A stretch of DNA of 64,000 bases from Pseudomonadota bacterium (GTDB lineage Bacteria > Pseudomonadota > Alphaproteobacteria > Micavibrionales > UBA2020), in the NCBI GenBank assembly GCA_021845905.1, contig JAJZVA010000002.1, forward strand, positions 76,577 through 140,576, read 5' to 3'. This document shows, piece by piece, positions 17,668 to 57,368 of the stretch. Numbering within the stretch: the first letter of the stretch is position 1; every line of letters begins with the position of its first letter. The notes under the pieces were generated by a model, which worked only from the letters and a program-made list of their open reading frames with translations, was not told the origin of the DNA and made no database searches. The position numbers and the translations under genes are program-made.

Positions 17668-19296
17668 ATGACAGAGGCGTTCGAGCTTCCGCGCGAGGTC
17701 GCCACCGCCTACCGCGCCGCGCCGCAAAAAGCCTTGCGGGTGCTGGCGGCGCTGGCCGACGGCAACGGCCTCAAGGCGGAACAGTTGCGGCTCGTCAGGG
17801 ACGAGACGGAGATCCATATGATCCCCGCCGCGATCACCGTCACGCTTGCGCCGGACATGGCCAAATCGCAGGTGCGCGGCCGCAACCCGCAAGGGGAGGC
17901 GCTGGGCAGCGCGGCCGAAATCATGGCCGCCGCCGAAGCGCTTTTGCCGCAGTTTTTAGAGGGCGAAGCCGCGCGGCAGGAGATTCTCGAAGTCGTGCGC
18001 CGTCTTCCGGGCGAAGGCTTCGGCATGGCGGCGACAAGCATTCCCCTCAAATCCGCGCAGAAGGTTTTCTCGACCGTCGCGCCCTGCGCCGCTTGCGCGG
18101 GCGAAGCGGTCATTCCCTGCCAGCTTTGCCGCGGCACGGGGCGGATGCCCTGCCAGGCCTGCCGCGGCGCGGGCTTCTCGCCCTGCGCCGGTTGCGGCGG
18201 CGGCGGACTTCTGCCGCCCGATGCCGCGGGAAACAGCATGCCCTGCCCGCGCTGCCAGCGGACGGGAAAAATAACCTGTCAGGTTTGCAACGGCGCGCGC
18301 GAGACGGGCTGTCAGGCCTGCGGAGGTCAGGGACGGACGGGCTGCCCGTCTTGCGGACAGACGGGCGCCGAGACGCTGGTTTATCAGATGTCCGCCACGG
18401 CGCGGTGCGTCTTCAAGATCGACTGGCGCAAGGCGCCGCCCGGGGTCAAAGACGTTTTCGAAAAGCTCGGCGGGGATAAAATCGTCGCCCGCAAGCATGC
18501 CGAGGCCTACTGGCAGCTGCCGGAGGTGCGCGGCAAGGAGCTTGTCATCGACGGTCTCGCCTGTTTTCCGGTTTCCGCCGCGACGTTTTCGGTGGCGGGG
18601 AAGATGTTTCCCGCCACGGTCGCGGGGCTGCAGGGCCGCATCGTCACGATGGATCCGGTGCTCGACCCGTTCGTCAAGCCGGGAATTTCCGCGCTGGTCA
18701 AGCTCGCCAAGGGGCCGCTCGCCGCGGCGGCGCTGATCGATACCGCCTGCAAATACAAGCTGACGCGCCGCGTGCTGGCCGACGTGGCGCGCCGCCCGAA
18801 AAAAACGGTCTATCAGGCGCTGGTCGGCGAATACGGCGCGCTGCTGTCGGACAAATACGCCCGCGCCGCCGTCACCAGCGCCGCGCGCGCGCTGCAGGCC
18901 ATCAGCAACGGCCCGCGCGGCAGGGGGCTTGCGCTCGGCGCCGCTCTTTCCGCCGCGCTCGCCGTCGGATATTACATGACGCCGCTCCGTCTTTCCCTGT
19001 TTGCGGCGCTGGCGCAAAGGGGCCTTGAAAAATATATCGCGCTTGCGGATATTGCCGTCGGCCTCGCCGGCGCGCTTCTGACCGTTGTCCTGATCCGCAT
19101 GATGGCGGCGTCGGCGCTGAAAAAAATCCTGCCCGCGGCGGTGCGGGCGGAAGAGACCGGCGGCGGCGCGTCTTTCCGCCCCGGCGCGGGAACGCAGGGA
19201 TTGCTGGCTTTTCCGCTCTGCGCGGCCGTTTCCGTCGCCGCTGCGGCGCTGGCGGCGCACAAGCCGGAGTGGATCATGGTTTTGCTGCGGCGGTGA
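17668..19296 (+). CDS. hypothetical protein with eight CxxC (DnaJ CR-like CxxCxGxG) motifs and C-terminal TM helices
   Basis: 542 aa; aa 140-229 = CAAC..CQLCRGTG..CQACRGAG..CAGCGGGG..CPRCQRTG..CQVCNGAR..CQACGGQG..CPSCGQTG; 3-4 hydrophobic helices in the last ~120 aa. Confidence 0.7.
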   Translation: MTEAFELPREVATAYRAAPQKALRVLAALADGNGLKAEQLRLVRDETEIHMIPAAITVTLAPDMAKSQVRGRNPQGEALGSAAEIMAAAEALLPQFLEGEAARQEILEVVRRLPGEGFGMAATSIPLKSAQKVFSTVAPCAACAGEAVIPCQLCRGTGRMPCQACRGAGFSPCAGCGGGGLLPPDAAGNSMPCPRCQRTGKITCQVCNGARETGCQACGGQGRTGCPSCGQTGAETLVYQMSATARCVFKIDWRKAPPGVKDVFEKLGGDKIVARKHAEAYWQLPEVRGKELVIDGLACFPVSAATFSVAGKMFPATVAGLQGRIVTMDPVLDPFVKPGISALVKLAKGPLAAAALIDTACKYKLTRRVLADVARRPKKTVYQALVGEYGALLSDKYARAAVTSAARALQAISNGPRGRGLALGAALSAALAVGYYMTPLRLSLFAALAQRGLEKYIALADIAVGLAGALLTVVLIRMMAASALKKILPAAVRAEETGGGASFRPGAGTQGLLAFPLCAAVSVAAAALAAHKPEWIMVLLRR

Positions 19297-23569: not shown

Positions 23570-23617
23570 TATTCCATATCTTTATAATGATTCGTTCCCT
23601 GAAAAAAAGAAGCCAAA

Positions 23618-24649
23618 ATGTTCGGACGCGAAGCCAGAAGAAGAAAAGAAGAACAAAGACAGCTGGAACAAAGGAAAGAAAACCTGCTGGCCGCGGCGCG
23701 GAACAACGATACCGCCGGCGTGGTGAAATATTTCATGCGCCGCCCGGTTGTGTTTGATGCCTGCCTTGCCGCCGTGGAGGCGGGTTCCGTCGATGCGCTG
23801 AAGGCTTTATTGCGGAGAAACCTGGGTTTTGACTTTTCGGAATTCAGAGACCAGGACGTTCTGAAAGCAAAGCGTCTCGTCAATGCAGCGCGCGGCTCCG
23901 ATAAAGCCGACGCCTTGCTCACCGTCCTTTTCGCGGCAAACGAAACAACGGAATGCGGCAAGCTGCACCAATCGACGTTCATTTGTCCTGAAATCTCCCA
24001 CGACATACTGAGATGCATCCTGCTCATGACGCCATCAACCTTCGAGACCGCCATCGACGTTATCGGCCTTGAGGATACCGACAGGTTGAAATTCATCCTC
24101 GCCTTTCTGCCGAAGGACGGCAGCGGGCAGGGCGCGCTTGACAAGGCGCTGAGCGTTTCCGCTGAAAGAAACGACGTTGAAAAAGCGCAAATGCTCCTCG
24201 ACAAGGGCGCGAACGCCAATCATGCCGAGGCGCAGGCGTTGCAAAACGCGGCGATGGCCGGTCATATGGACATGGTCTGTCTGTTGTTGCTGCATGTCGA
24301 TCTTCTGCTCTACGGCAACGACGTCTCGGCGCAGGTCGAGCATGCCCATCCCGACCTCGCGAAGCTGATCGCCGACGCGACCGCGATTTGCTTCCAGGAA
24401 GAAGAAAGCCCCTTTGTCGCGCTCAATAAAAACATTCTGGAGGAGCGGCAAACGCTCTCCGGCGGCAAAACGCTGACCACGATATTCAATTTCGAGACAC
24501 GGCAGCAGCATAACGCCATCGAAACGCCGCAGGGAACGGAGAAAATGACCACCGTCAACTTCAAGGATATCGATGCCGGCGTCCTTGAAAAAATGCGCCG
24601 CAAACTCGACGGACTCAACGCTGCAAAACGCCTCGTCAACAAACCTTAA
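23618..24649 (+). CDS. ankyrin-repeat-like hypothetical protein, paralog A1
   Basis: 343 aa; MFGREARRRKEEQRQLEQRKE charged N-terminus; ANK-like ..AERNDVEKAQMLLDKGANANHAEAQALQNAAMAGHMDMVCLLL..; conserved C-terminal module ..TLTTIFNFETRQQHNAI..VNFKDIDAGVLEKMRRK. Confidence 0.7.
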   Translation: MFGREARRRKEEQRQLEQRKENLLAAARNNDTAGVVKYFMRRPVVFDACLAAVEAGSVDALKALLRRNLGFDFSEFRDQDVLKAKRLVNAARGSDKADALLTVLFAANETTECGKLHQSTFICPEISHDILRCILLMTPSTFETAIDVIGLEDTDRLKFILAFLPKDGSGQGALDKALSVSAERNDVEKAQMLLDKGANANHAEAQALQNAAMAGHMDMVCLLLLHVDLLLYGNDVSAQVEHAHPDLAKLIADATAICFQEEESPFVALNKNILEERQTLSGGKTLTTIFNFETRQQHNAIETPQGTEKMTTVNFKDIDAGVLEKMRRKLDGLNAAKRLVNKP

Positions 24650-30726: not shown

Positions 30727-31206
30727 TTACGTCTTTTTGCTGTCGCGGTGAGTGACGTGCTGGAATCCCGCCGCAAAAGAGAAAAGCCGCTCTTTCAGAA
30801 ACGCGGGTTTTAAATCCGTTTCGCGCAGGTCATCGGAAGAAAACCATGAGCTGGTGATGGGCGTGCCGTTTGTGTCGGTCTTGGGCACGGCAAGCGGTTC
30901 GGGCAGCGCGGCGCGGTAGAAAACCATCAGTTCGTGAAAGTCCCGCCGTTCGCTGACAAAGAAATTTTCGACGACGCCCGCGAGTTCAAGGCTGTCGGGC
31001 GCGCAGTGCAGCTCCTCGCCGATTTCGCGTATGACGGCTTCTTCCGATGTTTCGCCGAAAGCAACGCGTCCGCCCGGCATGAACCAGTAATCATGCGCGT
31101 CATGTTGCTGCAGAAGGATTTTCCCTGCGCGGAAAACGAGGAAAGCCACGCGGATATTGAGCTTGCCCCACGGCGTTTGCAGCGTGAGGTCTTTGCTTTC
31201 CGGCAT
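30727..31206 (-). CDS. NUDIX hydrolase
   Basis: 159 aa from ATG 31206; Nudix box GGRVAFGETSEEAVIREIGEELH; start overlaps upstream stop by 1 nt (TGATG). Confidence 0.8.
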   Translation of the reverse strand: MPESKDLTLQTPWGKLNIRVAFLVFRAGKILLQQHDAHDYWFMPGGRVAFGETSEEAVIREIGEELHCAPDSLELAGVVENFFVSERRDFHELMVFYRAALPEPLAVPKTDTNGTPITSSWFSSDDLRETDLKPAFLKERLFSFAAGFQHVTHRDSKKT

Positions 31207-32411
31207 CACGCCGTCTCTTTGAACAATTCCCGCCCGATCAGCATGCGGCGGATCTCGCTCGTGCCCGCGCCGATCTCGTAGAGTTTCGCGTCGCGCAATA
31301 ATCTGCCCGCCGGATAATCGTTGGTATAGCCGTTGCCGCCGAGGCACTGGATGGCGTCGAGCGCCATCGCGGTGGCTTTTTCGGCGGAATACAAAATCGC
31401 GCCCGCCGCGTCCTTGCGGGTCACTTCGCCGCGGTCGCATGCCTTGCCGACGGCGTAAACGTAAGCGCGGGCGGTGTTCATCATCACATACATGTCGGCG
31501 AGTTTGCCCTGCATGAGCTGGAATTCGCCGATGGATTGGCCGAACTGCTTGCGCTCGTGCAAATAAGGCAACACGATATCGAGGCAGGCCTGCATGATGC
31601 CGAGCGGCCCGCCGGACAAGACGGCGCGTTCGTAATCGAGCCCGCTCATCAGCACTTTCACGCCCTTGCCGACCTCGCCCAGCACGTTTTCCTCCGGCAC
31701 TTCGCAGTTATCGAACACCAGCTCGCAGGTGTTGGAGCCGCGCATGCCGAGCTTGTCGAGCTTCTGCGCGGTGGAAAAACCCTTGAATGTGTTCTCGACC
31801 AGAAACGCGGTGATGCCTTTGCTCCCCGCCGCGGGATCCGTCTTGGCGTAGACCACCAGCGTCGCCGCGTCGGGGCCGTTGGTGATCCACATCTTGTTGC
31901 CGTTGAGGACATAGCGGTCGCCCTTTTTCTCTGCCTTGAGTTTCATCGAAACGACGTCGGAGCCCGCGCCCGGCTCGCTCATGGCGAGCGCGCCGATCTT
32001 TTTGCCGGCGCAGAGGTCGGGCAGGTATTTTTGTTTTTGCGCCGGTGTGCCGTTGAGGTTGATCTGGTTGACGCAGAGGTTGGAAAACGCGCCGTAAGAG
32101 AGGCCGATGCTGGCGGAGGCGCGTGAAATTTCCTCCATCGCAACGATGTGCTCGATGTAGCCCATGCCGGTGCCGCCGTATTCCGGATCGGCGGTGAGCC
32201 CGAGCAATCCCAGTCTGCCCATTTCAGGCCAGAGGTCGTTGGGGAAGGCGTTGTCGTGGTCGACCTGCGCCGCGATCGGCGCGATCTCCTTCTGCGCGAA
32301 ATCCTGCACTGTGGCGCGCAAGGCGTCCGCCGTTTCGCCGAGGTCGAAGTTCAGCGACGGAAAATCCTGCGCCTTGGGAACATAAGTTTCTTTCTTTTGA
32401 GCCTGTGTCAT
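31206..32411 (-). CDS. ivd: acyl-CoA dehydrogenase, isovaleryl-CoA dehydrogenase-like
   Basis: 401 aa; ..[27 protein letters not shown].., C-terminal ..[19 protein letters not shown]. Confidence 0.88.
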
Positions 32412-32568
32412 GAGTTTTTCCTCATTGATTCTTTAAGGTAAAATACCAATCGGAAATATAAAGCAAATGACGGCAAAGGGCGACGCCCTATATTTTTACA
32501 TAGTCATGAAGATATTCACTGTGCAACAGGCCGATTGTTGTTAAGATGATTCGCCAGGGAGGATTATC

Positions 32569-32775
32569 ATGAATGAATTTCTTTTATCGTTTTACGACAG
32601 GTGTTTTAAAGGCGTGCGGGGCACGTATTTCAGTTGCGTGCGGGGCACGACAGCCATCGAATACAGCCTGATCGTCGGCGGGATCGCCGTGGCCATTTCC
32701 GTAGTCGTTTTTGCGGTCGGCAGCGATCTCAAGGTGCTGTTTCAGGCTATCGCCACGATGGCGGCGAAATTCTGA
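32569..32775 (+). CDS. flp: Flp/Fap-family type IVb prepilin (orphan: no tad/cpa genes in window)
   Basis: 68 aa; processing-site motif G|TTAIEYSLIVGGIAVAI; RBS gggagga. Confidence 0.75.
   Translation: MNEFLLSFYDRCFKGVRGTYFSCVRGTTAIEYSLIVGGIAVAISVVVFAVGSDLKVLFQAIATMAAKF
32612..32649. repeat. 24-bp-period duplication inside the flp leader (gcgtgcggggcacg at 32612 and 32636) duplicating the VRGT residues preceding the cleavage site
   Basis: 14-nt perfect core repeated with 24-nt offset; protein reads ..KGVRGTYFSCVRGT|TAIEY. Confidence 0.8.
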
Positions 32776-32828
32776 TTTTATGAATATGCAAGAATAAGAT
32801 AAATTCCCGTTGCCTTTATATGTTTATC

Positions 32829-33113
32829 GTCCTAGGGTCAGACCTCATTAATCTATGGCAATTCTACGCGAAGCGAAAATGGCGATCCTGCAATGACAAG
32901 GCTGCAGAGCGTAGCGGTTGCTACGGTCAAAGCCTTGGAAGCCGCAGGGCGTCATTTTCGCCGCGCCCGGAAGGGTAAGCCCTCGGCCGCACCGTCTGCG
33001 GCGTCAAAGCAACTGAAGCGTGGGATCCACCACGCTTTCGTTGCTTTTCCTTGCATCCAATACGGCGCAGGGCTTATATAATTCCATAGATTAATGAGGT
33101 GTGATCCTAAGAC
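32829..33113. mobile_element. 285-bp element bounded by 30-bp imperfect terminal inverted repeats (MITE-like, or a structured RNA with a long closing stem)
   Basis: Left gtcctagggtcagacctcattaatctatgg (32829-32858) versus reverse complement of 33084-33113, 27/30 match; interior is G+C-richer than flanks and full of local hairpins. Confidence 0.35.
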
Positions 33114-33148
33114 TTGGGGCATTATAAAACATAATAAAGGAATTTATC

Positions 33149-33298
33149 ATGCATATCGTCATGAAAGACCTCGCCTCCAGCCTTGATTCCATCGCCGCGC
33201 CGCCGCGTCCGCAAGAAACGGCGGAAGAGATGATCAGCGCAAAGCAGGCGCGTCTGCGTGACGCCCGCCGCCGTCCGGCGGTCAAGTTCCGCCGCTGA
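33149..33298 (+). CDS. possible 49-aa small protein (not in supplied ORF track)
   Basis: ATG 33149 with aaagga 7-8 nt upstream; MHIVMKDLASSLDSIAAPPRPQETAEEMISAKQARLRDARRRPAVKFRR*; speculative. Confidence 0.25.
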   Translation: MHIVMKDLASSLDSIAAPPRPQETAEEMISAKQARLRDARRRPAVKFRR

Positions 33299-33323
33299 GC
33301 GGCGAAGCGCGCGCCGGTTCTTT

Positions 33324-34049
33324 TTATTGCGGATACAGCGCGGCGTAGAAGCCGTAAGCGCCGCTGCCGTTGCTGACGCACATTTGCTTCATATTGACGC
33401 AGGCCGCGCAGGCCGTCGCGTCGATGGTCACCGTCGCGTCGCTGGTGAACAGGCTGGTGAAGGCGGTGGAGCTCATTGTCGGGATCGCCGTCGTGCCGTT
33501 GACGATCTGGTTGATGCGCGCGCAATAGGCCGCGTTCTCGACATTGGCGGTGAAGACGGTGTCGCCGGGGCCGGAATCGGTCGGCCCGACGCCGACGATG
33601 ATCGCCCCGGGGTCGATGCCGTAGCCCGACGCCACCGGCGTGCCGGAATTGGAACTGGCGGAAAGATAAGAGACGCCGCCGCCGCTCGGATAAAAGAGTT
33701 CCAGCGCGTGGTTCGAATCGCCGCTCGCGCCGCTTTCATAGGTTGCGTCGCCCGGTTTGGATAGATCGAGGCTGCTGTAAAGCGTGTCGGCCTGCGCGTA
33801 GCCGGAAACCACCATCTCGTTGAGCGCCTGCCCGATCGTCGCGGTATAGGCGAGCATGCGGTTGATCTGGTCGTCTTCCGTCTGCTGCGGCAGGACGTTC
33901 GACTGGTCTTTGGAATAGTTGGCGATGGCCAGCGTCAGGAGGCCGAAGATGAAAATGCCGATCAGCACCAGATAAAGAATGCTGCCGCGCGCGGGTTGTT
34001 TTTCCGGCGGGTTGTTTTCCGTTTTTTCTCGCGGCGCTTTTGTTTTCAT
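33324..34049 (-). CDS. hypothetical pilin-like protein (charged N-terminus, single N-terminal hydrophobic helix, Cys-rich C-terminal region)
   Basis: 241 aa; ..QPARG|SILYLVLIGIFIFGLLTLAIANY.. resembles a degenerate class III (prepilin) signal lacking Glu5; Gly/Ser/Thr-rich body; C-terminal ..ATACAACVNMKQMC.. Confidence 0.55.
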   Translation of the reverse strand: MKTKAPREKTENNPPEKQPARGSILYLVLIGIFIFGLLTLAIANYSKDQSNVLPQQTEDDQINRMLAYTATIGQALNEMVVSGYAQADTLYSSLDLSKPGDATYESGASGDSNHALELFYPSGGGVSYLSASSNSGTPVASGYGIDPGAIIVGVGPTDSGPGDTVFTANVENAAYCARINQIVNGTTAIPTMSSTAFTSLFTSDATVTIDATACAACVNMKQMCVSNGSGAYGFYAALYPQ

Positions 34050-34146
34050 GGACGATCCCCGTTCCTTGCGAGAATCCTAAAGCTTCCGCCGTCAAAATAG
34101 AAGGCTTCTTCGTGAAAAACGGCCTTTCGGGGCGGAAAACCGCGAT

Positions 34147-34183
34147 AAAAAAAGACCCGGCCTCGGGAGGACGGGTCTTTTTT
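34147..34183 (-). terminator. bidirectional intrinsic terminator hairpin downstream of the Clp-like gene
   Basis: aaaaaaa-GACCCG-gcctcgggagga-CGGGTC-tttttt: A-run and T-run flank a GC stem. Confidence 0.6.
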
Positions 34184-34207
34184 GTAAAAGCGGCGCTGTG
34201 CCGGAGA

Positions 34208-36829
34208 TCAGGCGCCGGGATTTTGCCCGACCGCCCGCTTCTTGCGCGCGGCGCTTCTCTTTTTCGTCACGACGTTGTCGTTGGCGGTTTCGCTCGCCGG
34301 CGGCTCGTTCGGGACGATCGACGGAGCGACGGCGTAACGCCGCTTGTCGTTCATTTCGATCGAGTTGATGACGATCGTCACCGCGCTCTTTTCCGAGGCC
34401 TTCTCGATTTCCTCGCGGTTTTCCATCAGCCACTTGGTGAGCGGATTGATGATCTTGTCGCGAATGACCTTGTCCATCGGACGCGCGCCCATCGTCGGGT
34501 CGTAGCCCATCTTGCAGAGCTCGTCCATCACCTTGGGGGCGACGGAAAGCGACACGCCGGAGAGGCCCTGGCCGTCCGCGTTCGAAAGGCGGGCGCTGAT
34601 GTCGCCGATCTGTTTCTTGGCGATCAGCGCGACGACTTCCTTGGCAAGCGGCAGATAGGTGATGAAGCCGCCGAGCATGTTGATGCGGTTGACCATCTCC
34701 GGACGGAAGAGCGCCGCGCGCGCCGGCGCGAAGGCCGTGGCGGGAATCGGCTGGCTGATGGCTTGGGCGTAGATTTTCTCCAGCGCCGTTTTCAGCTCTT
34801 CCGGTTCGAGGGTGTTCTTCCCGAAGCCCATGCCGCCGGTTTTTCCGCCCTTGGAGATGAGCTCCATGGCTTCGGACGCGCCAGCATTGGTCGTCATCAG
34901 GATGATGGTGTTGTTGAACTTGATGGTGTTGCCGTGGTTGTCCGTCGTCTGGCCGTCCTGCAGGATGGGCAGAAGGATGTTGAACACGTCCGGGTGCGCC
35001 TTTTCGATTTCATCGAGCAGGAGAATAGTGTAGGGGCGCTGGCGGATCTGTTCGAACACCGGCTCGGAATCCTCGAAGCCGACGAAGCCCGGAGGCGCGC
35101 CGATCAGGCGGGAAACCGCGTGCTTTTCGGCGTATTCGGACATGTTGAGGGTGATCACCGCGTCTTCGGAACCGAAGAGGTAGCGGGCGAGCGCCTTGGC
35201 GGTTTCGGTCTTGCCGGTGCCGGTCGGGCCTTGCAGCACGAAGCAACCCCACGGCTGGCGCGGGTTGGGCAGGCCGCCGCGCGCGCCGATCAGCGCGTCG
35301 GTGATGCGCAGGAGGTCGGGCTGGCCGAGCACTTTCTTCGGCAGTTCCTCTTCGAGCTTGAGGAAACGCTCCTTGTCCTTCTGCGCGAGGAAGTCCTGCG
35401 ACAGGCCGGACATTTGCGACACGGCGGCGATGATGTCCTTGCGCGTCACGGTTACGCGGCCGTCGAATTCCGCGCCGGAAGCGGCGGTATTCATGGCTTT
35501 TTCGCCCTTGCGCGGCTGGGCTTCCTGCGGCGCGAAGCGGTTGGTCATGGTGATGAGGTATTTGAGGTCGTCGTCCGAGATCGCTTCCGAGAGACCGTTG
35601 TGCTCCTCCGTCAGCGGCCACAGCTTGCGCAGGATGGCGAAGGTCGTTTCATCGTCCGGCGGCATGAGGCGCGTCTTCTCGAAGCGGCTGGCGAGCGCCG
35701 GGTCCTTTTCGATGTGCTTGCGGTATTCCTTGTCGGTGGTCGTGCCGAGGACGGAGACGCCCTTGGCGGTGAGGAACGGCTTCATCATGTTGCCGGCGTC
35801 CGTGCCGCCCTGGGCCATGCCGGCCGTGAGCTGCGAGTGGATTTCGTCGATGGCGAGGATGATCTTCTTGCCGCGGAAGATGCCGCCGCGCTCGGCGAGG
35901 CCGTCGATCAGCGGTTTCAGCCTTTCCTCGAATTCGCCGCGGAACTTTGCGCCGGCGTTCATGCTTTGCAGGTCGAGTTCGAGGACGCGCGCGCCTTCGA
36001 GGCTGATGGGCAGCTTGCCCGTTTCGGCGTTGTCGACGAGATACTGGGCGATGCCGGAGAACATGGTGCTTTTGCCCACGCCGGCGTCGCCTGTGAAGCA
36101 CTGGCTCGACTGCTTGCGGCGGCCGAGGACGCGCATCGCCTGCTCGATTTCCTGATCGCGGCCGATGACGGGGTCAAGATCGCCGCGGCGGGCCATTTCG
36201 GTCAGGTCCTTGCAGTATTTGACAAGGGCCTGCTCGAGCTGGCTGTCGGAGATTTTATAGTTGCGCTGCGCCGTATTGTTGAACGGCACGCGCACCGGAC
36301 GCGGCTTTTGCACCGCGAGCCGCGGCGGAACGGGCGCGCCGTGCGCGGCGCGCGCGGTTTGGGCGATGCCGTTCGTGTGTTGCGGCGGCAGGGAGAGATA
36401 GACCGTGCCCGGCTGGTTCGCGGGCGAATCGACGTTCTCGAAGCGCGCCGGGAAGTCGGCGCCGAAGTTTTCCTGCGCGATGAGTTTTTTCGATTCGGGG
36501 GTCAGTTCGAAGGCGATGCGTCCGCCGGCCGAAGGTACGGCCCTGTAGGTGACGTCAATCGTCTCGCCTTCATAGTCGCCCGCGTTGGTCATGGCGATCT
36601 TGTAGACAGTGACGGTGACTGCCGCGCGGGTGCCGCTGACGGTCATCATTTGCTTGTCGTCGAACGCGTAGATTTTCTGCCCCGCCGCGAGCGGTTCGCC
36701 ATTATAGGCGTGCAACGGCCGTTGCGGTTCCCCATCCTTGAATTCCAGCGCGTACTGGCGGGTGCTTTTGGCGTCCGTCAGGTAGATGAAGCCGTTGAAG
36801 TTTTCGGTGTTGGCGGGATCTGTCGTCAT
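34208..36829 (-). CDS. atypical two-ring Clp/Hsp100 AAA+ ATPase lacking Clp_N and M-domain, with an unrecognised ~215-aa N-terminal domain
   Basis: 873 aa; D1 ..DLDPVIGRDQEIEQAMRVLGRRKQSSQCFTGDAGVGKST.. Walker B ILAIDEIH; D2 ..VLQGPTGTGKTETAKALA.. Walker B ILLLDEIEKAH, ..RPEMVNRI..; N-terminal 215 aa beta-rich with no Clp_N repeat; basic tail ..TKKRSAARKKRAVGQNPGA. Confidence 0.85.
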   Translation of the reverse strand: MTTDPANTENFNGFIYLTDAKSTRQYALEFKDGEPQRPLHAYNGEPLAAGQKIYAFDDKQMMTVSGTRAAVTVTVYKIAMTNAGDYEGETIDVTYRAVPSAGGRIAFELTPESKKLIAQENFGADFPARFENVDSPANQPGTVYLSLPPQHTNGIAQTARAAHGAPVPPRLAVQKPRPVRVPFNNTAQRNYKISDSQLEQALVKYCKDLTEMARRGDLDPVIGRDQEIEQAMRVLGRRKQSSQCFTGDAGVGKSTMFSGIAQYLVDNAETGKLPISLEGARVLELDLQSMNAGAKFRGEFEERLKPLIDGLAERGGIFRGKKIILAIDEIHSQLTAGMAQGGTDAGNMMKPFLTAKGVSVLGTTTDKEYRKHIEKDPALASRFEKTRLMPPDDETTFAILRKLWPLTEEHNGLSEAISDDDLKYLITMTNRFAPQEAQPRKGEKAMNTAASGAEFDGRVTVTRKDIIAAVSQMSGLSQDFLAQKDKERFLKLEEELPKKVLGQPDLLRITDALIGARGGLPNPRQPWGCFVLQGPTGTGKTETAKALARYLFGSEDAVITLNMSEYAEKHAVSRLIGAPPGFVGFEDSEPVFEQIRQRPYTILLLDEIEKAHPDVFNILLPILQDGQTTDNHGNTIKFNNTIILMTTNAGASEAMELISKGGKTGGMGFGKNTLEPEELKTALEKIYAQAISQPIPATAFAPARAALFRPEMVNRINMLGGFITYLPLAKEVVALIAKKQIGDISARLSNADGQGLSGVSLSVAPKVMDELCKMGYDPTMGARPMDKVIRDKIINPLTKWLMENREEIEKASEKSAVTIVINSIEMNDKRRYAVAPSIVPNEPPASETANDNVVTKKRSAARKKRAVGQNPGA

Positions 36830-37103
36830 TCTATGTACTCCTGGGTGGGATCTCTTTTGTGGATCTATAGTTATGGCTTTGTTGTTTACGTAGTGTTAAA
36901 CATTTGAATCACCACATCAAGAAAAATTATATGGATTATTGTTTTTTAAAAATATAATTATTTTTCTAAGGCATAAAAAAACAGTATTACGAATAATAAC
37001 AATAAAATTATTCGATTATGAAATTAAAACCCCTAAACCATCTCCATGTCCGACAAATGAGACACATAAAATGAGGAAAAGACTCGATTCTTGGCGCGCA
37101 GAA
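36830..37103. promoter_or_regulatory. strongly AT-rich ~270-bp upstream region of the Clp-like gene
   Basis: Long A/T runs (..ttgttttttaaaaatataattatttttctaagg..) in an otherwise GC-rich genome; RBS aggag 9 nt before ATG 36829. Confidence 0.5.
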
Positions 37104-38066
37104 TCAGTTATGTATTGCAGGCTCTTCCTCGATATCCGGAAAAAAGAACGGGCGCGACCCTTGTTGTTCCGCCGCAAGGCAGGCGGCAAGGCCGCTGTGA
37201 TAATCCGGATAGATCAAGGTGACGCCGAGCTCGTTTTTGAGCGCATCGTTGCGCACGCGCTTGTTGTCTTTATAGAAGCTGCGCACCATCGGCGGCATTT
37301 CGGCGCTTTCATAAGGAACCAGCGGCGGCGTCTCCGCGCCGATGAGGTTGCAGGCGAGGCCGATGACGGCGTGGCTGGGCGCAGGTTCGTCGTCGGCGAG
37401 GTTGTAGATAGCGCCGGGGCGCGGTTTTCCGATCGAGGCTTCAAGCGTTTGCGCGATATCCGCCACATGGATGCGGTTGAACATGTGGCCTGGCTTGTCG
37501 ATGCAGCGCGCGGAGCCGGCGCGCACCACGTCGAGCGCGCTGCGGCCCGGCCCGTAGATGCCGGCGATGCGAAAGATATGCAGGGGCAGGCCTTCGCTGA
37601 GGCAGAGCGACTGCCATTGTTCCTCGGCTTTCAAACGCAAGCTGCCGCGGCGGCTGGAAGGCGCGGGCGGCGTCGTTTCATCGACCCATTTGCCGTCCTG
37701 ATTGCCGTAGACGGCGGTGGTGGAAAGATATCCCGCCCAGCTGAGGTTTTCGAGCGCTGCGATGTCCGCGCCGTGCGTGTTGAAGACCGGGTCTCCGTCG
37801 CCGTCCGGCGGCACGGAGAAGAGCATGTGCGTCACGCCGGAAAAAGTCTTCACGGGATCGGCGATGGGATGCGTCTGGTCGAAGAGCGTTGCGGCGATGC
37901 CGTTTTTTCGCAGATAATCGCGTTTTTTCGGGGATGTCGTGGTGCCGCCGACCTGCCAGCCCCGCGCCATCAGCCTTTCGGCGAGGAACGCCGCCGTATA
38001 GCCGAAGCCGAAGCAGAAGAGCTTTCCTTTCTCTGTGGCGGCGGCTGTATGCGGTGCGGGCGTCAA
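37104..38066 (-). CDS. NAD(P)-binding SDR-family epimerase/dehydratase-like protein
   Basis: 320 aa; N-terminal ..LFCFGFGYTA.. Rossmann start, ..YLSTTAVYG.., ..RIAGIYGPGR.. Confidence 0.7.
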   Translation of the reverse strand: MTPAPHTAAATEKGKLFCFGFGYTAAFLAERLMARGWQVGGTTTSPKKRDYLRKNGIAATLFDQTHPIADPVKTFSGVTHMLFSVPPDGDGDPVFNTHGADIAALENLSWAGYLSTTAVYGNQDGKWVDETTPPAPSSRRGSLRLKAEEQWQSLCLSEGLPLHIFRIAGIYGPGRSALDVVRAGSARCIDKPGHMFNRIHVADIAQTLEASIGKPRPGAIYNLADDEPAPSHAVIGLACNLIGAETPPLVPYESAEMPPMVRSFYKDNKRVRNDALKNELGVTLIYPDYHSGLAACLAAEQQGSRPFFFPDIEEEPAIHN

Positions 38067-38854: not shown

Positions 38855-40096
38855 TTACGTATGCTGTTTTGCGCCGAGCGCGACGATATGAAAGAAAACC
38901 GGCACCTGACTTGCAATAATATCCGTCGCCTTCCATTGCCCCGTGCCGATGTTGAATTTGGAGCGGTCGAGCGTGAGGCTGCCGTCGGCGGTGGCAATTT
39001 CGCCGCCGTCCGGATTCCTGGAGAATATCACGGTGAACGGCAGCTGCACGGGCAGCGACACGCCCTTGATGGTCAGGATGCCGTCGGCGGTGTAGGCGTT
39101 TGCGCCGACCTTGTGGAAAGCGGTCGATTTGAAGATCGCGTCCGGAAAGCGCGCGACGTCGAACCATTCCGCGCTCATCAGGTTCTGGTCGCGGTCCGAC
39201 GCGCCGGTCGAGGCCGTCGTCATGTGCACGTCTACATAGACGCTGCTCCCCGCGAGGTTGTCAGGTGAAAAAAAAATGCTCGCCGCGAAAACGCCGAAAT
39301 GCCCGGTGAAGGCCTTGCCGAGCTGCGTCGGCTTGAAGGTGATGGTGCTTTTCTGATGCAGCATCACCCAGGCGCGGGCGGGTTTTGCGGCCGTTGCGAT
39401 GTTCGTTTGCGCTGGAACATTTACTATCGCGGCCTTCGCCGGAATATTGGTTGTCGCGGCCTTCGCCGGAATATTGGTTGTCGCGGCCTTCGCCGGAATA
39501 TTGGTTGTCGCGGCCTTCGCCGCGGGCGCCGCGCCGAGCAAAAGCGCCGCAAGCAGCAAGGGCAGCATGCGTTTCAGCACCGTGTCCTTCTTGAAGAAGT
39601 GGTGCATCAGCGCCGCGCCGGCGTGGGCAGAGACGACGGCGATCAGCACGTCGCTGATGTAGCCGTGCAGTTCGCGGTAAAGATGCGCGCCCGCCTTGCT
39701 CTTGACGACGAAGTCCGGCAACGTGAAGAGGCCGAAGACGTGCACGGGGACGCCGAAGGCCGACGACATCGCCCAGCCGGTGAGCGGCATGGCGATCAGC
39801 AGCAGATAGAAGCTGTCGTGCAGGGCGCGCGCGCCGATGCGCTCCATCTTCGTCAGGGTTTCGACCGGCTGCGGGCGGCGGCTGAACAGATGCCAGAGGA
39901 CGCGCACGGCGATGAGGGCGAGCACGAGGATGCCGAGCGATTTGTGCAGGTCGTAGATCTTGAACTTGAAATCGCTGCGCGGCAGGCCGTGCATCCACGA
40001 ACCGACGACGAGCTGGAAGATGACGATCAAGGCGATCGTCCAGTGCAGGAGTTTGCTGACGCTGCCGTATTGCGACGGCGTGTTTTTGAAAGCCAT
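38855..40096 (-). CDS. cytochrome b561 (YceJ-like) fused in frame to a YceI-like domain via a repetitive linker
   Basis: 413 aa; N-half ..SKLLHWTIALIVI..YDLHKSLG..HAGAALMHHF..; then signal-peptide-like MLPLLLAALLLGAAPAAKA, (AKAATTNIP)x3, then YceI-like ..WVMLHQKSTITFKPTQLGKAFTGHF..LTIKGVSLPV.. Confidence 0.8.
   Translation of the reverse strand: MAFKNTPSQYGSVSKLLHWTIALIVIFQLVVGSWMHGLPRSDFKFKIYDLHKSLGILVLALIAVRVLWHLFSRRPQPVETLTKMERIGARALHDSFYLLLIAMPLTGWAMSSAFGVPVHVFGLFTLPDFVVKSKAGAHLYRELHGYISDVLIAVVSAHAGAALMHHFFKKDTVLKRMLPLLLAALLLGAAPAAKAATTNIPAKAATTNIPAKAATTNIPAKAAIVNVPAQTNIATAAKPARAWVMLHQKSTITFKPTQLGKAFTGHFGVFAASIFFSPDNLAGSSVYVDVHMTTASTGASDRDQNLMSAEWFDVARFPDAIFKSTAFHKVGANAYTADGILTIKGVSLPVQLPFTVIFSRNPDGGEIATADGSLTLDRSKFNIGTGQWKATDIIASQVPVFFHIVALGAKQHT
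39414..39523. repeat. 27-bp in-frame tandem repeat (3 perfect copies 39428-39508 plus partial or degenerate flanks) encoding the (A-K-A-A-T-T-N-I-P)n linker
   Basis: cgcggccttcgccggaatattggttgt x3 read directly. Confidence 0.95.
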
Positions 40097-52588: not shown

Positions 52589-53344
52589 ATGGCAGAAGAT
52601 TTGGACAACGTTTTAGATTCGGACAACGCTTTCGACCCGAAAGCCTTCGGCGGGCATTTGAAGGGATACTTTCAGGACAATGCCTGCCGCGCCCTGTCTT
52701 TCTTCGACGCGATGGCGCTTTTCGACCGGCTGGCCGACCGCCCCGACATCGCTTTCGGTTATGTCCGCGATGGATGCTACGCCCGCGCGCATCTGATGTG
52801 CCTTGAGATGGAGGCGCAAGGTTTGGCGCCGCTCAAGGCGTGGGCGCTTGAATATATCTATAAAGGCAACCCTCCGCCCGTCACGATGCCGAATGGAAAG
52901 ATTGCGCGGTGGGACTGGCACGTCGCGCCCGCCCTGCCGGTGCGCATGGCGGAGGGCGATGTGCGGATGATGGTGTTCGATCCCGGTCTGTTCGACGGGC
53001 CGGTGCCGCCCGAGGAGTGGGCGCGGCTCATTCACGTCACGTCTGAAAAGATCAAAATTCTCCCGTTCGGCGCGCCGCCGCTGGATGACAACGGAGATTA
53101 TATCCCCGACAACTCTTCTTTTACGCATCGGGAAGACATTCTCGACCATGCCCGCGCCACGATGGAAAAATACCTTTCTTTCCAGACCGCGCCGCGGCGC
53201 ACCGTCTTTGCTTCGGCGGCGCGGAAACAGGCGTGCGATCAAAAGCCGATGTCTTTCTCGATGCAGGGCAAAACCTGGGTTTCTCTGGACGCCACGGCGA
53301 CAGGGCCCGCCGTCTCGCCGCATCTTCCGCCGTGCGGGCCTTGA
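52589..53344 (+). CDS. protein-glutamine glutaminase-like papain-fold deamidase (Cys-His-Asp), no signal peptide
   Basis: 251 aa; ..RDGCYARAHLM.. (Cys), ..ARWDWHVAPAL.. (His), ..MMVFDPGLFDGPV.. (Asp) match, as I recall it, the C-x-x-RAH-x-M / W-x-YHVA / IDPSLF-x-GPV blocks of Chryseobacterium protein-glutaminase. Confidence 0.65.
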   Translation: MAEDLDNVLDSDNAFDPKAFGGHLKGYFQDNACRALSFFDAMALFDRLADRPDIAFGYVRDGCYARAHLMCLEMEAQGLAPLKAWALEYIYKGNPPPVTMPNGKIARWDWHVAPALPVRMAEGDVRMMVFDPGLFDGPVPPEEWARLIHVTSEKIKILPFGAPPLDDNGDYIPDNSSFTHREDILDHARATMEKYLSFQTAPRRTVFASAARKQACDQKPMSFSMQGKTWVSLDATATGPAVSPHLPPCGP

Positions 53345-55642: not shown

Positions 55643-56428
55643 TCAGCGCGGGGGCTTGATCCGCACCGCCGGTTTCGATTTTCGCGCGGCGGCGCGCAAG
55701 GCTTCGGTGCGGCGGGCGATCTCTCCGGCCGTTCCGGCGGACGGAGCTGTTTCCGGCGGGCGGTCTTTCTCTGCCATCTGCGGGATGGCGCACCCGTAAA
55801 TCTCGATCTTCTCGCAGTTGGCGCTTCCGAAGTTGTTGTTCCTCGCGTAGTCGAGCGCGACGGAGAAATCCGCGCCGCCGGCGCACAGCAGCTTCAGCGT
55901 CGCGACGGACTGGCAGGCCGTCACCGCATGGGCGAGGATGCAACCCGCCGCGCGGTCGCCGACGGCGGCGTTGGGATTGGCGCCCAGATCCAGCAATACC
56001 CCGGTCAGGGTCTCCGCCATGAAATGCGATATCATCGCGGAGAGAAGCGCGGCATCGAGCGTCTGCTGTCTTTTCGCGGCGGGCACGGCGGCGAGCGCGA
56101 CGCGCGCGGCTGCCAAAGGATCGGCGGGCGCCGGATAGTGGGATCCGGCGCACAGCAGGTCCCCCAGTTCATGGCCGACGTTGATCTTGATTTCCTCGTG
56201 CATGTTGCCGTAGACGGCGTTGAGAAAATGAAACTTGAGCGGTTCCGCCAGCAGCGTCTGGATGTTCTCAGGCCGCCCCTGATGGAAGGCGGCGCGCGCG
56301 CCGAGCTTCAGCATCATGATTTTGTCGTAGGGTTTTTCTTCCGCTTTCAGCGCGGCATAGGCCGCCTCGAAATCGGCCTTTGTGCCGTCGCGGCCGAGCT
56401 CGAAATAATATTGTCCGTCTTGCGCCAT
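55643..56428 (-). CDS. ankyrin-like hypothetical protein, paralog B1
   Basis: 261 aa; ..GVLLDLGANPNAAVGDRAAGCILAHAVTACQSVATLKLLCAGGADFSVAL..; tail ..AAARKSKPAVRIKPPR. Confidence 0.6.
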   Translation of the reverse strand: MAQDGQYYFELGRDGTKADFEAAYAALKAEEKPYDKIMMLKLGARAAFHQGRPENIQTLLAEPLKFHFLNAVYGNMHEEIKINVGHELGDLLCAGSHYPAPADPLAAARVALAAVPAAKRQQTLDAALLSAMISHFMAETLTGVLLDLGANPNAAVGDRAAGCILAHAVTACQSVATLKLLCAGGADFSVALDYARNNNFGSANCEKIEIYGCAIPQMAEKDRPPETAPSAGTAGEIARRTEALRAAARKSKPAVRIKPPR

Positions 56429-56437
56429 GCCGTGCTC

Positions 56438-57280: not shown

Positions 57281-57368
57281 GCGATTCTCTCCTATGAAAA
57301 TGAGTTATTTCATTAACATAAGGAAAATGATGACGCAACGCTTATATAAATTCTTTTTTATCAAAGCC

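What the first reader, a model, noticed from the sequence alone, without database searches (positions are those of the whole stretch)
32420..37103. AT-rich-flanked islet: orphan Flp pilin, IR-bounded element, pilin-like protein and atypical Clp ATPase between ivd and an SDR gene
Seen: between two ordinary metabolic genes lie four features. They are a 68-aa Flp prepilin (G|TTAIEYSLIV), a 285-bp inverted-repeat element, a 241-aa protein and the atypical Hsp100. The 241-aa protein has pilin-like architecture: a charged leader, one N-terminal hydrophobic helix, a Gly/Ser/Thr-rich body and a Cys cluster near the C-terminus. No tad/cpa assembly genes (prepilin peptidase, CpaF/TadA ATPase, secretin) are in the window. 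Intergenic DNA here is conspicuously AT-rich compared with the genome. Inference: the co-location of two filament-subunit-like proteins with an unfoldase-type ATPase could be an uncharacterised surface-fibre or export module. It could also simply be a patchwork of acquired genes.
Basis: inference. Interest (0 to 1): 0.6.

Follow-up and report, generated by a model that had tools for sequence, protein, structure and literature searches.

The report
Orphan Flp, new pilin-like family, odd Hsp100
The region is ordinary inherited chromosome, not one machine: a stand-alone Flp pilin gene lies tail-to-tail with a gene from a large, unannotated family of pilin-shaped proteins, next to an unrelated unusual Clp/Hsp100 ATPase and a small mobile repeat.

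Summary
All four features exist at the stated coordinates. They do not form one module.

- **ATPase.** It has its own AT-rich upstream region and a strong terminator before the 241-aa gene. It belongs to a distinct alphaproteobacterial Hsp100 clade of about 83 clusters, with no Clp_N, no M-domain and a novel N-domain. Five more distant clade members have neither the 241-aa gene nor flp nearby.
- **241-aa protein.** It is not an orphan. An exhaustive profile search finds 1,749 representative clusters, none matching Pfam.
  - AlphaFold with 118 homologues (pLDDT 90.5) gives a 59-residue helix that starts right after an invariant Gly, plus a beta domain.
  - The top Foldseek PDB hits are type IV pilins, but the scores are weak.
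  - There is no Glu at +5, as in GspK or ComGG minor pilins.
- **flp pairing.** flp lies tail-to-tail, 0 to about 10 bp away (548 bp in the window itself), in 6 of 11 informative lineages. Only one of these is outside the shared ivd synteny.
- **Inverted-repeat element.** It is a multi-copy MITE. Assemblies of the same species diverge or break exactly at it.
- **Origin.** Codon usage and synteny argue against recent acquisition, and AT-rich intergenic DNA occurs across the whole window.

Verdict: the pilin-like reading is supported, and the unfoldase-fibre module is not.

The parts
31206..32411 (-). Isovaleryl-CoA-dehydrogenase-type acyl-CoA dehydrogenase. It is the left flank and is divergent from flp.
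   Evidence: Pfam Acyl-CoA_dh_N, _M and _1. It is syntenic with flp in L001, L003, L017, L020-L025.
32412..32568 (+). AT-rich flp upstream region with promoter-like sites and a GGGAGGA ribosome-binding site.
   Evidence: GC 0.38-0.42. Sigma-70-like matches at 32467-32494 and 32541-32570. Sequence read.
32569..32775 (+). Stand-alone Flp (Tad, type IVc) prepilin. It has a 25-aa leader, the cleavage motif G|TTAIEY and a 43-aa mature peptide.
   Evidence: Pfam PF04964 at 33.7 bits against a 32.2 cut-off. Flp orthologues lie in the same convergent position in L001, L003, L016, L017 and L025.
32598..32645 (+). 24-nt tandem duplication inside the Flp leader. It repeats the peptide ..CFKGVRG / YFSCVRG, so the leader is 8-13 aa longer than in relatives.
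   Evidence: the repeat finder family D6, 75% identity. Relatives' Flp proteins are 55-60 aa.
32829..33113 (.). 285-bp non-coding element bounded by inverted repeats. It is a multi-copy MITE, and TA abuts each terminus (GGGTCAGACC...GGTGTGATCC).
   Evidence: 30-nt arms, 90% complementary. The fold z-score is -12.7. There is no Rfam match. Four 99.5%-identical contigs diverge into three different flanks exactly at its outer end, 32831-32833. Four other contigs end at 32973, which is 141 nt (the assembly k-mer) into the element.
33149..33298 (+). 49-aa ORF of unknown function, followed by a terminator-like hairpin at 33300-33316. It is present only in this species and lies inside the ~540 bp that relatives lack.
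   Evidence: It is called as a gene in L005-L008 and L021. GC3 is 0.74. It has no family match and no homologue in any other locus. Hairpin.
33324..34049 (-). 241-aa member of a large unannotated family of type-IV-pilin-like proteins. It has a 22-aa charged leader, an invariant Gly22, a 59-residue alpha-1 helix (23-81), a beta-sheet domain, an HPxGGG motif (YPSGGG in the window protein) and 4 conserved Cys.
   Evidence: 1,749 representative clusters at E<=1e-3. AF2 pLDDT 90.5 and pTM 0.79. Foldseek top hits are type IV pilins. N-terminal logo. Weak GspK, GspJ and ComGG hits among members.
34148..34183 (-). Intrinsic terminator between the ATPase stop codon and the start of the 241-aa gene. It has a 17-bp G+C-rich stem and a T7 tail.
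   Evidence: Inverted repeat I7, 94% complementary. Sequence read. It is picked up as the terminator part of Rfam Thr_leader, a sub-threshold match.
34208..36829 (-). 873-aa class-I Hsp100/Clp ATPase of a distinct alphaproteobacterial clade. It has a novel ~160-190-aa N-domain, no Clp_N, no M-domain, two intact AAA+ rings and a conserved C-terminal ANDN-basic tail.
36830..37103 (-). Upstream region of the ATPase, 274 bp and very AT-rich (down to 25% GC), presumed to hold its own promoter and leader. A long upstream gap is also seen in orthologues.
   Evidence: Upstream gaps are 277-480 bp in L009, L010 and L011.
37104..38066 (-). 320-aa epimerase/SDR-like protein forming the right flank. It is the conserved upstream neighbour of the ATPase in close relatives.
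   Evidence: Weak Pfam Epimerase match. It is syntenic in L009 and L013 at 71-73% identity.

Best explanation
The segment is vertically inherited chromosome of an uncultured Rhodospirillales-like alphaproteobacterium. It carries independent units that happen to lie side by side.

1. **flp.** A stand-alone Flp prepilin gene with its own promoter region. Its assembly machinery must be encoded elsewhere.
2. **The 241-aa gene.** It lies tail-to-tail with flp and belongs to a large, uncurated family of type-IV-pilin-like proteins.
   - Shown: a predicted lollipop fold, with the long helix starting exactly after an invariant Gly that follows a short charged leader.
   - Inferred: a prepilin peptidase cleaves after that Gly. 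Because the protein lacks Glu+5, like GspK, PilX and ComGG, it would act as a low-abundance tip or initiator (minor) subunit or adhesin of a type IV / Tad-class filament rather than as a polymerising major subunit. The recurrent pairing with flp suggests the Tad/Flp filament as its partner.
3. **The Hsp100 ATPase.** It has its own AT-rich upstream region and terminator.
   - Shown: a double-ring AAA+ protein with intact Walker motifs and pore loops, without an M-domain.
   - Inferred: a cytoplasmic unfoldase that uses its clade-specific N-domain to pick substrates or adaptors. It is unrelated to pilus biogenesis, which uses TadA/CpaF-type ATPases.
4. **The MITE.** A 285-bp multi-copy MITE, with an adjacent 49-aa ORF, was inserted in this species into the few bp that originally separated the two convergent stop codons.
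For: **Separate units**
- A terminator at 34148-34183 lies between the ATPase and the 241-aa gene.
- An MFS gene sits between them in L003/L004 and L013, and directly upstream of the 241-aa homologue in L025/L026 and L027, whose contigs end before any ATPase.
- flp and the 241-aa gene are on opposite strands.

**ATPase is independent**
- 83 clusters form a clade with 673-1957 bits, 62-100% coverage (92-100% for the 80 full-length members; three are fragments) and no PF02861. Scores then drop to ClpB at 439 bits.
- Contexts L009, L010, L011, L028 and L029 contain no 241-aa homologue and no Flp within 7-8 kb.

**241-aa family**
- 1,749 hits, almost all full-length and 208-263 aa.
- Gly22 is present in 118 of 118 sequences and +1 is Asn or Ser in 115 of 118. 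There is no Glu at +5. Four Cys are conserved in 97% or more.
- AF2 gives pLDDT 90.5 with helix 23-81 and a beta domain.
- Seven of the first ten Foldseek PDB hits are type IV pilins (CofA pilus, C. difficile PilA1, TcpA). The other three are very weak PIP4K-beta matches.
- The recurrent weak NCBIfam hits are GspK, GspJ, ComGG, XpsI, ComGE and GspI.

**flp pairing**
- flp is convergent in the window (548 bp away, after the insertion) and 0 to about 10 bp away in L001/2/12, L003/4, L025/26, L017 and L016. L016 shares neither ivd nor the ATPase.

**Native origin**
- GC3 is 0.81 for the 241-aa gene and 0.86 for the ATPase, against 0.82 for ivd.
- Synteny is conserved.
- There is no tRNA.

**MITE**
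-. L021 independently confirms the window's arrangement at 99.94% identity.

**Precedent**
- Orphan flp genes are known in Alphaproteobacteria: B. diazoefficiens has five outside its tad clusters (PMC12918737).
Against: - The family matches no prepilin N-methylation model and lacks the Phe/Met+1 and Glu+5 hallmarks.
- No peptidase or filament machinery was seen, because the genome outside the window is inaccessible. Cleavage and incorporation into a filament are therefore inference.
- flp adjacency is absent in 5 of 11 informative lineages (L013, L014, L015, L018, L019).
- Five of the six positive lineages share ivd synteny, so they are not independent. Only L016 is an independent case.
- Convergent genes cannot be co-transcribed.
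- The function of the ATPase, including any ClpP docking, is untested. The loop motif MGF at the ClpA/ClpC loop position is not conserved in the clade.
Confidence: 0.6

Rival explanations
1. The first reader's module: Flp, the 241-aa pilin-like protein and the Hsp100 ATPase work together as a surface-fibre or export apparatus, with the unfoldase feeding or extracting subunits.
For: The three genes are neighbours in the window and in relatives L002/L012, L003/L004 and L013.
Against: - A terminator lies between the ATPase and the 241-aa gene.
- An MFS gene is inserted between them in L003 and L013.
- Five of five more distant ATPase-clade contexts lack both partners.
- Six lineages of the 241-aa family lack the ATPase in their flanks.
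- The ATPase has no signal peptide or membrane segment. Known type IV filaments use PilB/TadA-type ATPases (established knowledge).
- All positive cases share wider synteny (aroQ-accBC-yceI-GST-SDR ... ivd), so the co-location can be explained by inheritance alone.
Confidence: 0.06
2. The 241-aa protein is not a filament subunit. It is an N-terminally anchored periplasmic or envelope protein whose long helix merely resembles pilin alpha-1, and its position next to flp is synteny inertia.
For: - The Foldseek scores are insignificant.
- It has no Glu+5, no N-methyl motif and no Pfam or NCBIfam membership.
- Family members sit as singletons next to unrelated genes such as dnaN, hemF and ankyrin genes, not in pilus operons.
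- flp is absent next to it in 5 of 11 lineages.
Against: - A Gly immediately before the hydrophobic segment is strictly invariant in 118 of 118 sequences, and leader lengths range from 5 to 39 aa. A simple signal anchor has no need for this, whereas it is the one universal requirement of prepilin peptidases (established knowledge of PilD/TadV specificity).
- The helix begins exactly at +1 and is 59 residues long.
- Seven of the first ten structural hits, and all recurrent weak sequence hits, are pilins or pseudopilins.
- flp adjacency recurs in L016 outside the shared synteny.
Confidence: 0.28
3. The region is a horizontally acquired islet, a patchwork of foreign genes marked by AT-rich borders.
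For: - AT-rich DNA lies at 32326-32650 and 36751-37175.
- A mobile element sits inside the region.
- The flp gene has somewhat lower GC3, 0.68.
Against: - Sixteen comparable AT-rich intergenic segments occur across the window.
- GC3 of the 241-aa gene and the ATPase equals that of the housekeeping neighbours.
- Gene order is conserved in relatives down to about 50% protein identity.
- There is no tRNA, integrase or direct-repeat boundary.
- Only about 540 bp (MITE plus 49-aa ORF) is lineage-specific.
Confidence: 0.04
4. The inverted-repeat element is a structured non-coding RNA gene or a regulatory structure rather than a mobile repeat.
For: The predicted structure is very stable: -163.7 kcal/mol, z = -12.7, with nested internal hairpins. 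A terminator-like hairpin lies inside it at 33015-33038.
Against: - There is no Rfam match even at E<=1.
- It is absent from the same intergenic position in all relatives.
- Contigs of the same species join it to three different flanks, and other contigs stop exactly one k-mer inside it. This is the behaviour of a dispersed repeat.
- It has terminal inverted repeats with TA at every junction.
Confidence: 0.06

Closest known systems
Flp/Fap pilins of Tad (type IVc) pili, e.g. Aggregatibacter Flp1 and Caulobacter PilA
   Same: The 68-aa product passes the Pfam Flp_Fap threshold. It has the G/XXXXEY processing motif and a ~43-aa hydrophobic mature peptide.
   Different: No tadV/cpaA, rcpA/cpaC or tadA/cpaF lies within 64 kb. 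The leader carries a 24-nt internal duplication. Orphan flp copies are, however, known, for example five in Bradyrhizobium diazoefficiens (PMC12918737).
Glu5-less minor (pseudo)pilins GspK / PilX / ComGG, and by fold the type IVb pilins CofA and TcpA
   Same: A short charged leader, an invariant Gly at -1, a ~20-residue hydrophobic start to a helix of more than 50 residues, a globular beta domain and C-terminal cysteines. The best structural hits are CofA, TcpA and PilA1. The recurrent weak HMM hits are GspK, GspJ and ComGG.
   Different: No significant sequence or structural score to any of them. +1 is Asn or Ser, not Phe or Met. The family has its own signature (HPxGGG, C..RIN, CxxC...C, [FY]Y..L.PG). 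Members are encoded as singletons, not in gsp, pil or com operons.
Class-I Hsp100 ATPases without a middle domain (ClpA, ClpV/TssH) and ClpC, ClpB
   Same: Two AAA+ modules, intact Walker A/B (GDAGVGKS / AIDEIH; GPTGTGKT / LLDEIEKAH), pore loops (KFRGEFE; GAPPGFVG) and a ClpB_D2-small domain. The best PDB sequence matches are ClpB, ClpC and ClpA.
   Different: - No Clp_N domain. Instead there is a clade-specific N-domain with no detectable homologue.
- No coiled-coil M-domain.
- A ~29-aa insertion relative to ClpB at the position of the ClpP-docking loop, without a conserved [LIV]-G-[FL] motif.
- A conserved ANDN-basic C-terminal tail.
- Scores are less than half of every NCBIfam equivalog cut-off.
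- No T6SS genes are nearby.
MITEs with TA target sites derived from IS630/Tc1-mariner-type transposons (e.g. Neisseria Correia elements; comparison from my own knowledge)
   Same: Small (285 bp), non-coding, with 30-nt terminal inverted repeats. It is dispersed, intergenic, abutted by TA at all four observed junctions and highly structured.
   Different: No parent transposase was identified, no empty site was seen and the copy number was not measured. No similar sequence exists in the plasmid collection.

Membership tests
Flp/Fap pilin (PF04964) | Profile match above the curated threshold | tested here: met
   33.7 bits against a cut-off of 32.2, E = 3.1e-8.
Flp/Fap pilin (PF04964) | TadV/CpaA processing motif G/XXXXEY followed by a hydrophobic stretch, with a mature peptide of about 40-60 aa | tested here: met
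   VRG|TTAIEYSLIVGGIAVAISVVVF, mature peptide 43 aa.
Flp/Fap pilin (PF04964) | Encoded with, or served by, a tad/cpa locus (prepilin peptidase, secretin, TadA/CpaF ATPase) | tested here: not met
   None in the 64-kb window. The rest of the genome could not be examined.
Type IV pilin / pseudopilin superfamily (241-aa protein) | Class III signal peptide: a short charged leader ending in an invariant Gly, directly followed by about 20 hydrophobic residues | tested here: met
   Gly is present in 118 of 118 sequences. Leaders are 5-39 aa. Consensus: [QE][RS]G|N[AV]L[IF]Y[IV]LIA[IV]AL[FL][AG]AL[TS].
Type IV pilin / pseudopilin superfamily (241-aa protein) | Phe/Met at +1 and Glu at +5 (N-methylation motif, TIGR02532 / PF07963) | tested here: not met
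   +1 is Asn or Ser and +5 is Tyr, Ile or Leu. None of 118 members matches Pfam. Glu5 is also absent in the accepted members GspK and ComGG (my own knowledge).
Type IV pilin / pseudopilin superfamily (241-aa protein) | Lollipop fold: an N-terminal alpha-1 helix of about 50 residues packed on an antiparallel beta-sheet | tested here: inconclusive
Type IV pilin / pseudopilin superfamily (241-aa protein) | Cleavage by a prepilin peptidase and incorporation into a filament | not testable with these tools
   This needs N-terminal proteomics or pilus preparations.
ClpB/Hsp104 disaggregase | Clp_N domain and a coiled-coil M-domain inserted in AAA-1 | tested here: not met
   No PF02861 in any of the 83 clade members. 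D1 and D2 are contiguous, and ClpB matches come in separate stretches. TIGR03346 scores 509 bits against a cut-off of 1232.
ClpA/ClpC (ClpP-coupled unfoldase) | ClpP-docking loop [LIV]-G-[FL] in AAA-2 | tested here: inconclusive
   The window protein has GGMGFG inside a ~29-aa insertion relative to ClpB. Clade members show LAL, MEL, LSF, LDF or nothing comparable. TIGR02639 ClpA scores 456 bits against a cut-off of 993.
ClpV/TssH (type VI secretion) | Equivalog score and a T6SS gene neighbourhood | tested here: not met
   TIGR03345 scores 447 bits against a cut-off of 885. There are no T6SS genes in the window or in L009-L011, L028 or L029.
MITE | Terminal inverted repeats, small size and no transposase ORF | tested here: met
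   30-nt TIRs at 90% complementarity, 285 bp. The only ORFs inside are short, overlapping stop-to-stop ORFs (52-62 aa) that carry no family evidence.
MITE | Multiple dispersed copies in the genome | tested here: met
   The evidence is indirect. The same element is joined to three different flanks in contigs that are 99.5% identical. Four contigs end 141 nt (k = 141) inside it.
MITE | Target-site duplication | tested here: inconclusive
   TA abuts the terminus at all four junctions seen. No empty site is available to prove duplication.

The most novel reading that the evidence does not exclude
The 241-aa family is a previously unrecognised class of Glu5-less type IV pilin. It would be the dedicated tip, initiator or adhesin subunit of Flp (Tad) pili in many free-living and host-associated Alphaproteobacteria, encoded with a cognate orphan flp away from the tad machinery. 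This would supply the large minor subunit that Tad pili are not known to have.
Probability: 0.2. Interest if true: 0.6.

Novelty: new variant of a known kind. Interest (0 to 1): 0.35.

Why it matters
- **The proposed unfoldase-driven fibre or export module is not there.** That part of the finding is ordinary.
- **A large pilin-shaped family has no annotation.** It has at least 1,749 clusters at 50% identity and no Pfam or NCBIfam model. It repeatedly sits tail-to-tail with an orphan flp gene. If it is a real filament subunit, it would add a large minor pilin or adhesin to Tad-type pili, whose tip composition and adhesive determinants are poorly known.
- **A well-delimited Hsp100 clade has a novel N-domain.** It occurs in uncultured Alphaproteobacteria, several of which carry Dot/Icm-like and ankyrin genes. 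It is a clean target for structure prediction and for substrate or adaptor discovery.
- **The MITE matters in practice.** It is a breakpoint at which metagenome assemblies of this species fragment or join different loci.

Tried and rejected
- **N-domain word search.** A word-indexed homologue search with the ATPase N-domain alone returned nothing, not even the protein itself. The full-length query was used instead.
- **AF2 with a shallow alignment.** With only 6 homologues of the 241-aa protein, the model was unusable (pLDDT 50.8). It was redone with 118 sequences.
- **Profile of the 241-aa family against PDB sequences.** Nothing meaningful.
- **N-domain profile against PDB and Pfam.** Only noise, e.g. 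an adhesin coiled coil at E = 0.11.
- **The search for related loci.** Narrower alignments found 5 genome loci and 3 metagenome loci, so the co-occurrence sample is small.
- **MITE.** No match in the plasmid collection and no further copy in any fetched locus.
- **241-aa protein against plasmids by tblastn.** No match.
- **PADLOC.** Only generic AAA+ hits, so a defence-system reading was rejected.
- **Rfam.** Only two sub-threshold chance-level matches in the region.
- **Heat-shock control of the ATPase.** No sigma-32 or CIRCE-like motif was evident by eye upstream of the ATPase, so no claim is made.

Full report
**Observation**

- An ivd-type acyl-CoA dehydrogenase lies at 31206-32411(-).
- A 68-aa Flp prepilin lies at 32569-32775(+). 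It matches Pfam Flp_Fap at 33.7 bits against a 32.2 cut-off and carries VRG|TTAIEYSLIV.
- A 285-bp element at 32829-33113 has 30-nt arms that are 90% complementary. No such match is expected in shuffles.
- A 241-aa ORF at 33324-34049(-) has no Pfam or NCBIfam match.
- An 873-aa Clp/Hsp100 ATPase lies at 34208-36829(-).
- A 320-aa epimerase/SDR-like gene lies at 37104-38066(-).

- A 49-aa ORF at 33149-33298(+), with its own terminator-like hairpin.
- A strong intrinsic terminator at 34148-34183, between the ATPase stop and the start of the 241-aa gene.
- A 24-nt tandem duplication in the Flp leader (D6).

Pfam scans of about 35 further ORFs, together with the annotations of syntenic contigs, show only housekeeping genes and no tad/cpa genes in the 64 kb.

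**Is it an islet?**

No, for four reasons.
- Sixteen separate segments of the window fall below 45% GC. AT-rich intergenic DNA is therefore a genome-wide trait, although the 274 bp upstream of the ATPase is the extreme case at 25% GC.
- GC3 is 0.81 for the 241-aa gene and 0.86 for the ATPase, against 0.82 for ivd and 0.77 for the SDR-like gene.
- There is no tRNA between 30 and 39 kb.
- Gene order is conserved in relatives (see below).

**The inverted-repeat element is a MITE and an assembly breakpoint**

Four contigs of the same species (L005-L008) are 99.4-99.5% identical to the window from 44103 down to 32831-32833. That position is the outer end of the left arm. Beyond it they continue into three different flanks: flp-ivd in the window, a UbiD operon in L005, L006 and L008, and an SLT gene in L007.

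Conversely, four contigs that carry ivd-flp (L020, L022-L024) stop at window position 32973. That is 141 nt into the element, which equals the k-mer of the k141 assemblies. This is the signature of a dispersed repeat.

One 3.3-kb contig (L021) spans ATPase-end / 241-aa / ORF49 / element / flp / ivd at 99.94% identity. It independently supports the window's arrangement.

Other properties fit a mobile repeat.
- TA abuts the terminus (GGGTCAGACC...) at all junctions seen. This is compatible with an IS630/mariner-type TA target, but it is unproven.
- The element is very structured (z = -12.7) and has no Rfam match.
- In relatives the two convergent stop codons are 0-9 bp apart (L001, L003, L025). 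In the window they are 548 bp apart, so about 540 bp (MITE plus ORF49) is a lineage-specific insertion.
- ORF49 has no homologue in any other locus fetched.

**The ATPase**

A full-length search gives a sharply delimited clade. It contains 83 clusters (P0007-P0089) at 673-1957 bits. The 80 full-length members are 825-949 aa with 92-100% coverage, and three are shorter fragments. None has Clp_N (PF02861). The scores then fall to canonical ClpB at 439 bits or less.

An alignment of 11 members shows the following.
- A conserved N-domain of 160-184 aa (YLVDA..RQYA, AxDD, PPxHxGG.A.AR), followed by a variable linker.
- No M-domain.
- Intact Walker A/B motifs and pore loops in both rings.
- A conserved C-terminal ANDN-basic tail.

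The N-domain profile finds nothing in the PDB or Pfam. All NCBIfam equivalogs (ClpB, ClpA, ClpV, ClpK, ClpG) score at less than half their cut-offs.

Relative to ClpB there is a ~29-aa insertion where ClpA and ClpC carry the ClpP loop. The window protein reads GGMGFG there, but the motif is not conserved in the clade. ClpP coupling is therefore open.

Contexts of the clade:
- L009 (52% identity) keeps the upstream synteny (aroQ-accBC-yceI-GST-SDR), but a two-component system follows the ATPase.
- L010, L011 and L029 have an acetyltransferase upstream and DUF6782 downstream, with ankyrin arrays and DotD/TraI-like genes a few kb away.
- L028 differs again.
- None of these has a 241-aa homologue or an Flp within 7-8 kb.

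**The 241-aa protein**

The word-indexed search found only 6 relatives. An exhaustive profile search of 1.84 billion representatives found 1,749 at E<=1e-3 and 240 at E<=1e-10, nearly all full-length. The 118 aligned members are 208-263 aa. None of these 118 matches Pfam.

Family signature:
- a leader of 5-39 aa;
- [QE][RS]-G (118 of 118), then N/S-[AV]-L-[IF]-Y..., a ~20-residue hydrophobic stretch with no Glu at +5;
- HPxGGG;
- C..RIN;
- CxxC and a further Cys, giving four Cys conserved in 97% or more of members;
- a C-terminal [FY]Y..L.PG.

AlphaFold2 with the 118-sequence alignment gives pLDDT 90.5 and pTM 0.79. A continuous helix runs from residue 23, the residue after the invariant Gly, to residue 81. 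It is followed by short helices and four strands. With only 6 sequences the model was poor.

Foldseek against the PDB returns, as seven of its first ten hits, type IV pilins: the ETEC CofA pilus, C. difficile PilA1 and the V. cholerae TcpA pilus. None is significant (E 0.29-3.3, TM 0.2-0.48). The other fold libraries were unavailable.

The only recurrent weak NCBIfam hits of family members are minor (pseudo)pilins: GspK (5 members), GspJ (5), ComGG (4), XpsI, ComGE and GspI.

I conclude that the protein is most likely a type-IV-pilin-like protein of the Glu5-less, minor-pilin type. Membership of the superfamily is supported but not proven.

**Co-occurrence**

Lineages are ordered by identity of the 241-aa protein to the window's.

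| Locus | Identity | Context around the 241-aa gene (p241) |
|---|---|---|
| window | 100% | ATPase, terminator, p241, then convergent flp, then ivd |
| L001/L002/L012 | 73% | ATPase, p241, convergent flp, ivd |
| L003/L004 | 57% | ATPase, MFS, p241, convergent flp, ivd |
| L013 | 54% | SDR, ATPase, MFS, p241, no flp |
| L027 | 52% | MFS, p241, contig ends |
| L025/L026 | 48% | MFS, p241, convergent flp, ivd |
| L014 | 44% | p241 next to dnaN |
| L017 | 43% | unrelated gene, p241, convergent flp, ivd |
| L019 | 41% | flagellar-rod-like gene, p241, dnaN nearby |
| L016 | 36% | p241, convergent flp, ankyrin gene; no ivd, no ATPase |
| L018 | 35% | p241 next to hemF |
| L015 | 33% | Micavibrio MAG, no flp |

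- flp is the tail-to-tail neighbour in 6 of 11 informative lineages. Five of the six share ivd synteny. Only L016 is an independent case.
- The ATPase is a neighbour only within the closest clade, and there an MFS gene is often in between.

**Mechanism proposed**

- *Shown:* three separate transcription units, native composition, a pilin-like predicted fold with an invariant Gly, a double-ring AAA+ ATPase with intact motifs, and a dispersed repeat.
- *Inferred for the pilins:* flp and the 241-aa protein are both substrates of a prepilin peptidase and are used by a type IV / Tad-class machine encoded elsewhere. The 241-aa protein would be a low-copy tip or initiator subunit or adhesin, because Glu5-less pilins cannot propagate the filament register (established for GspK and PilX; my own knowledge).
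- *Inferred for the ATPase:* it is a cytoplasmic unfoldase whose novel N-domain selects substrates or adaptors.
- *Precedent:* orphan flp genes away from tad clusters occur in Alphaproteobacteria. B. diazoefficiens has five (PMC12918737).

**Verdict**

- The pilin-like reading of the 241-aa protein is supported.
- The unfoldase-fibre module and the acquired-patchwork alternatives are not supported.
- What is new is modest: an unannotated, widespread pilin-like family that often pairs with orphan flp, a distinct Hsp100 clade, and a MITE that fragments assemblies.
- Interest is 0.35.

Noticed in passing
window 39427-39522 (in the YceI/cytochrome-b561 fusion gene 38855-40096, minus strand): A perfect 27-nt tandem repeat of 3.6 copies encodes AKAATTNIP repeats in a linker. 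The orthologue in same-species contigs L005-L008 is 395 aa against 413 aa here, and the window-to-contig alignment has about 54 gap positions. This suggests copy-number variation between strains.
   Followed up: partly
L005/L006/L008 11217-12790 and L007 11219-11664: In contigs of the same species, the MITE is joined to a UbiD-family decarboxylase operon or to an SLT lytic transglycosylase gene instead of flp-ivd. These are either real recombination between MITE copies or chimeric metagenome joins. In L029 a similar SLT gene sits beside DotD and TraI-like type IVB secretion genes.
   Followed up: partly
L010, L011, L029 (contexts of ATPase-clade members at 48-50% identity): The ATPase is consistently preceded by a GNAT acetyltransferase and followed, convergently, by a DUF6782 protein. 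Arrays of ankyrin-repeat genes and DotD/T4SS_TraI genes lie 3-8 kb away, which hints at a host-associated lifestyle in these lineages.
   Followed up: no
window 23603-24646(+) and 52589-53341(+): An ankyrin-repeat protein and a Gln_deamidase_2 (PF18626) protein are encoded in the window. These domains are typical of secreted effectors of host-associated bacteria.
   Followed up: no
L019 5557-5964(+), 19 bp upstream of the 241-aa homologue at 5983-6687: In a 40%-GC metagenome contig, the 241-aa-family gene directly follows a 135-aa protein with a flagellar basal-body rod C-terminal domain (Flg_bbr_C, E = 5e-7). This is a single case of unknown significance.
   Followed up: no
window 33149-33298(+): A 49-aa ORF (MHIVMKDLASSLDSIAAPPRPQETAEEMISAKQARLRDARRRPAVKFRR) has an AT-rich upstream region, a GGA-rich ribosome-binding site and a terminator-like hairpin. 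It is found only in this species, lies next to the MITE and has no family match.
   Followed up: partly
window 36830-37103: The ATPase upstream region is the most AT-rich stretch of the window at 25% GC. Orthologues also keep a long upstream gap of 277-480 bp. A conserved regulatory leader or promoter may lie here, but no Rfam match or obvious heat-shock motif was found.
   Followed up: partly
window 17668-19293(+), 55646-57304(-), 62666-63661(-): Several sizeable ORFs (542, 264, 288 and 331 aa) with native codon bias have no Pfam match at the thresholds used.
   Followed up: no
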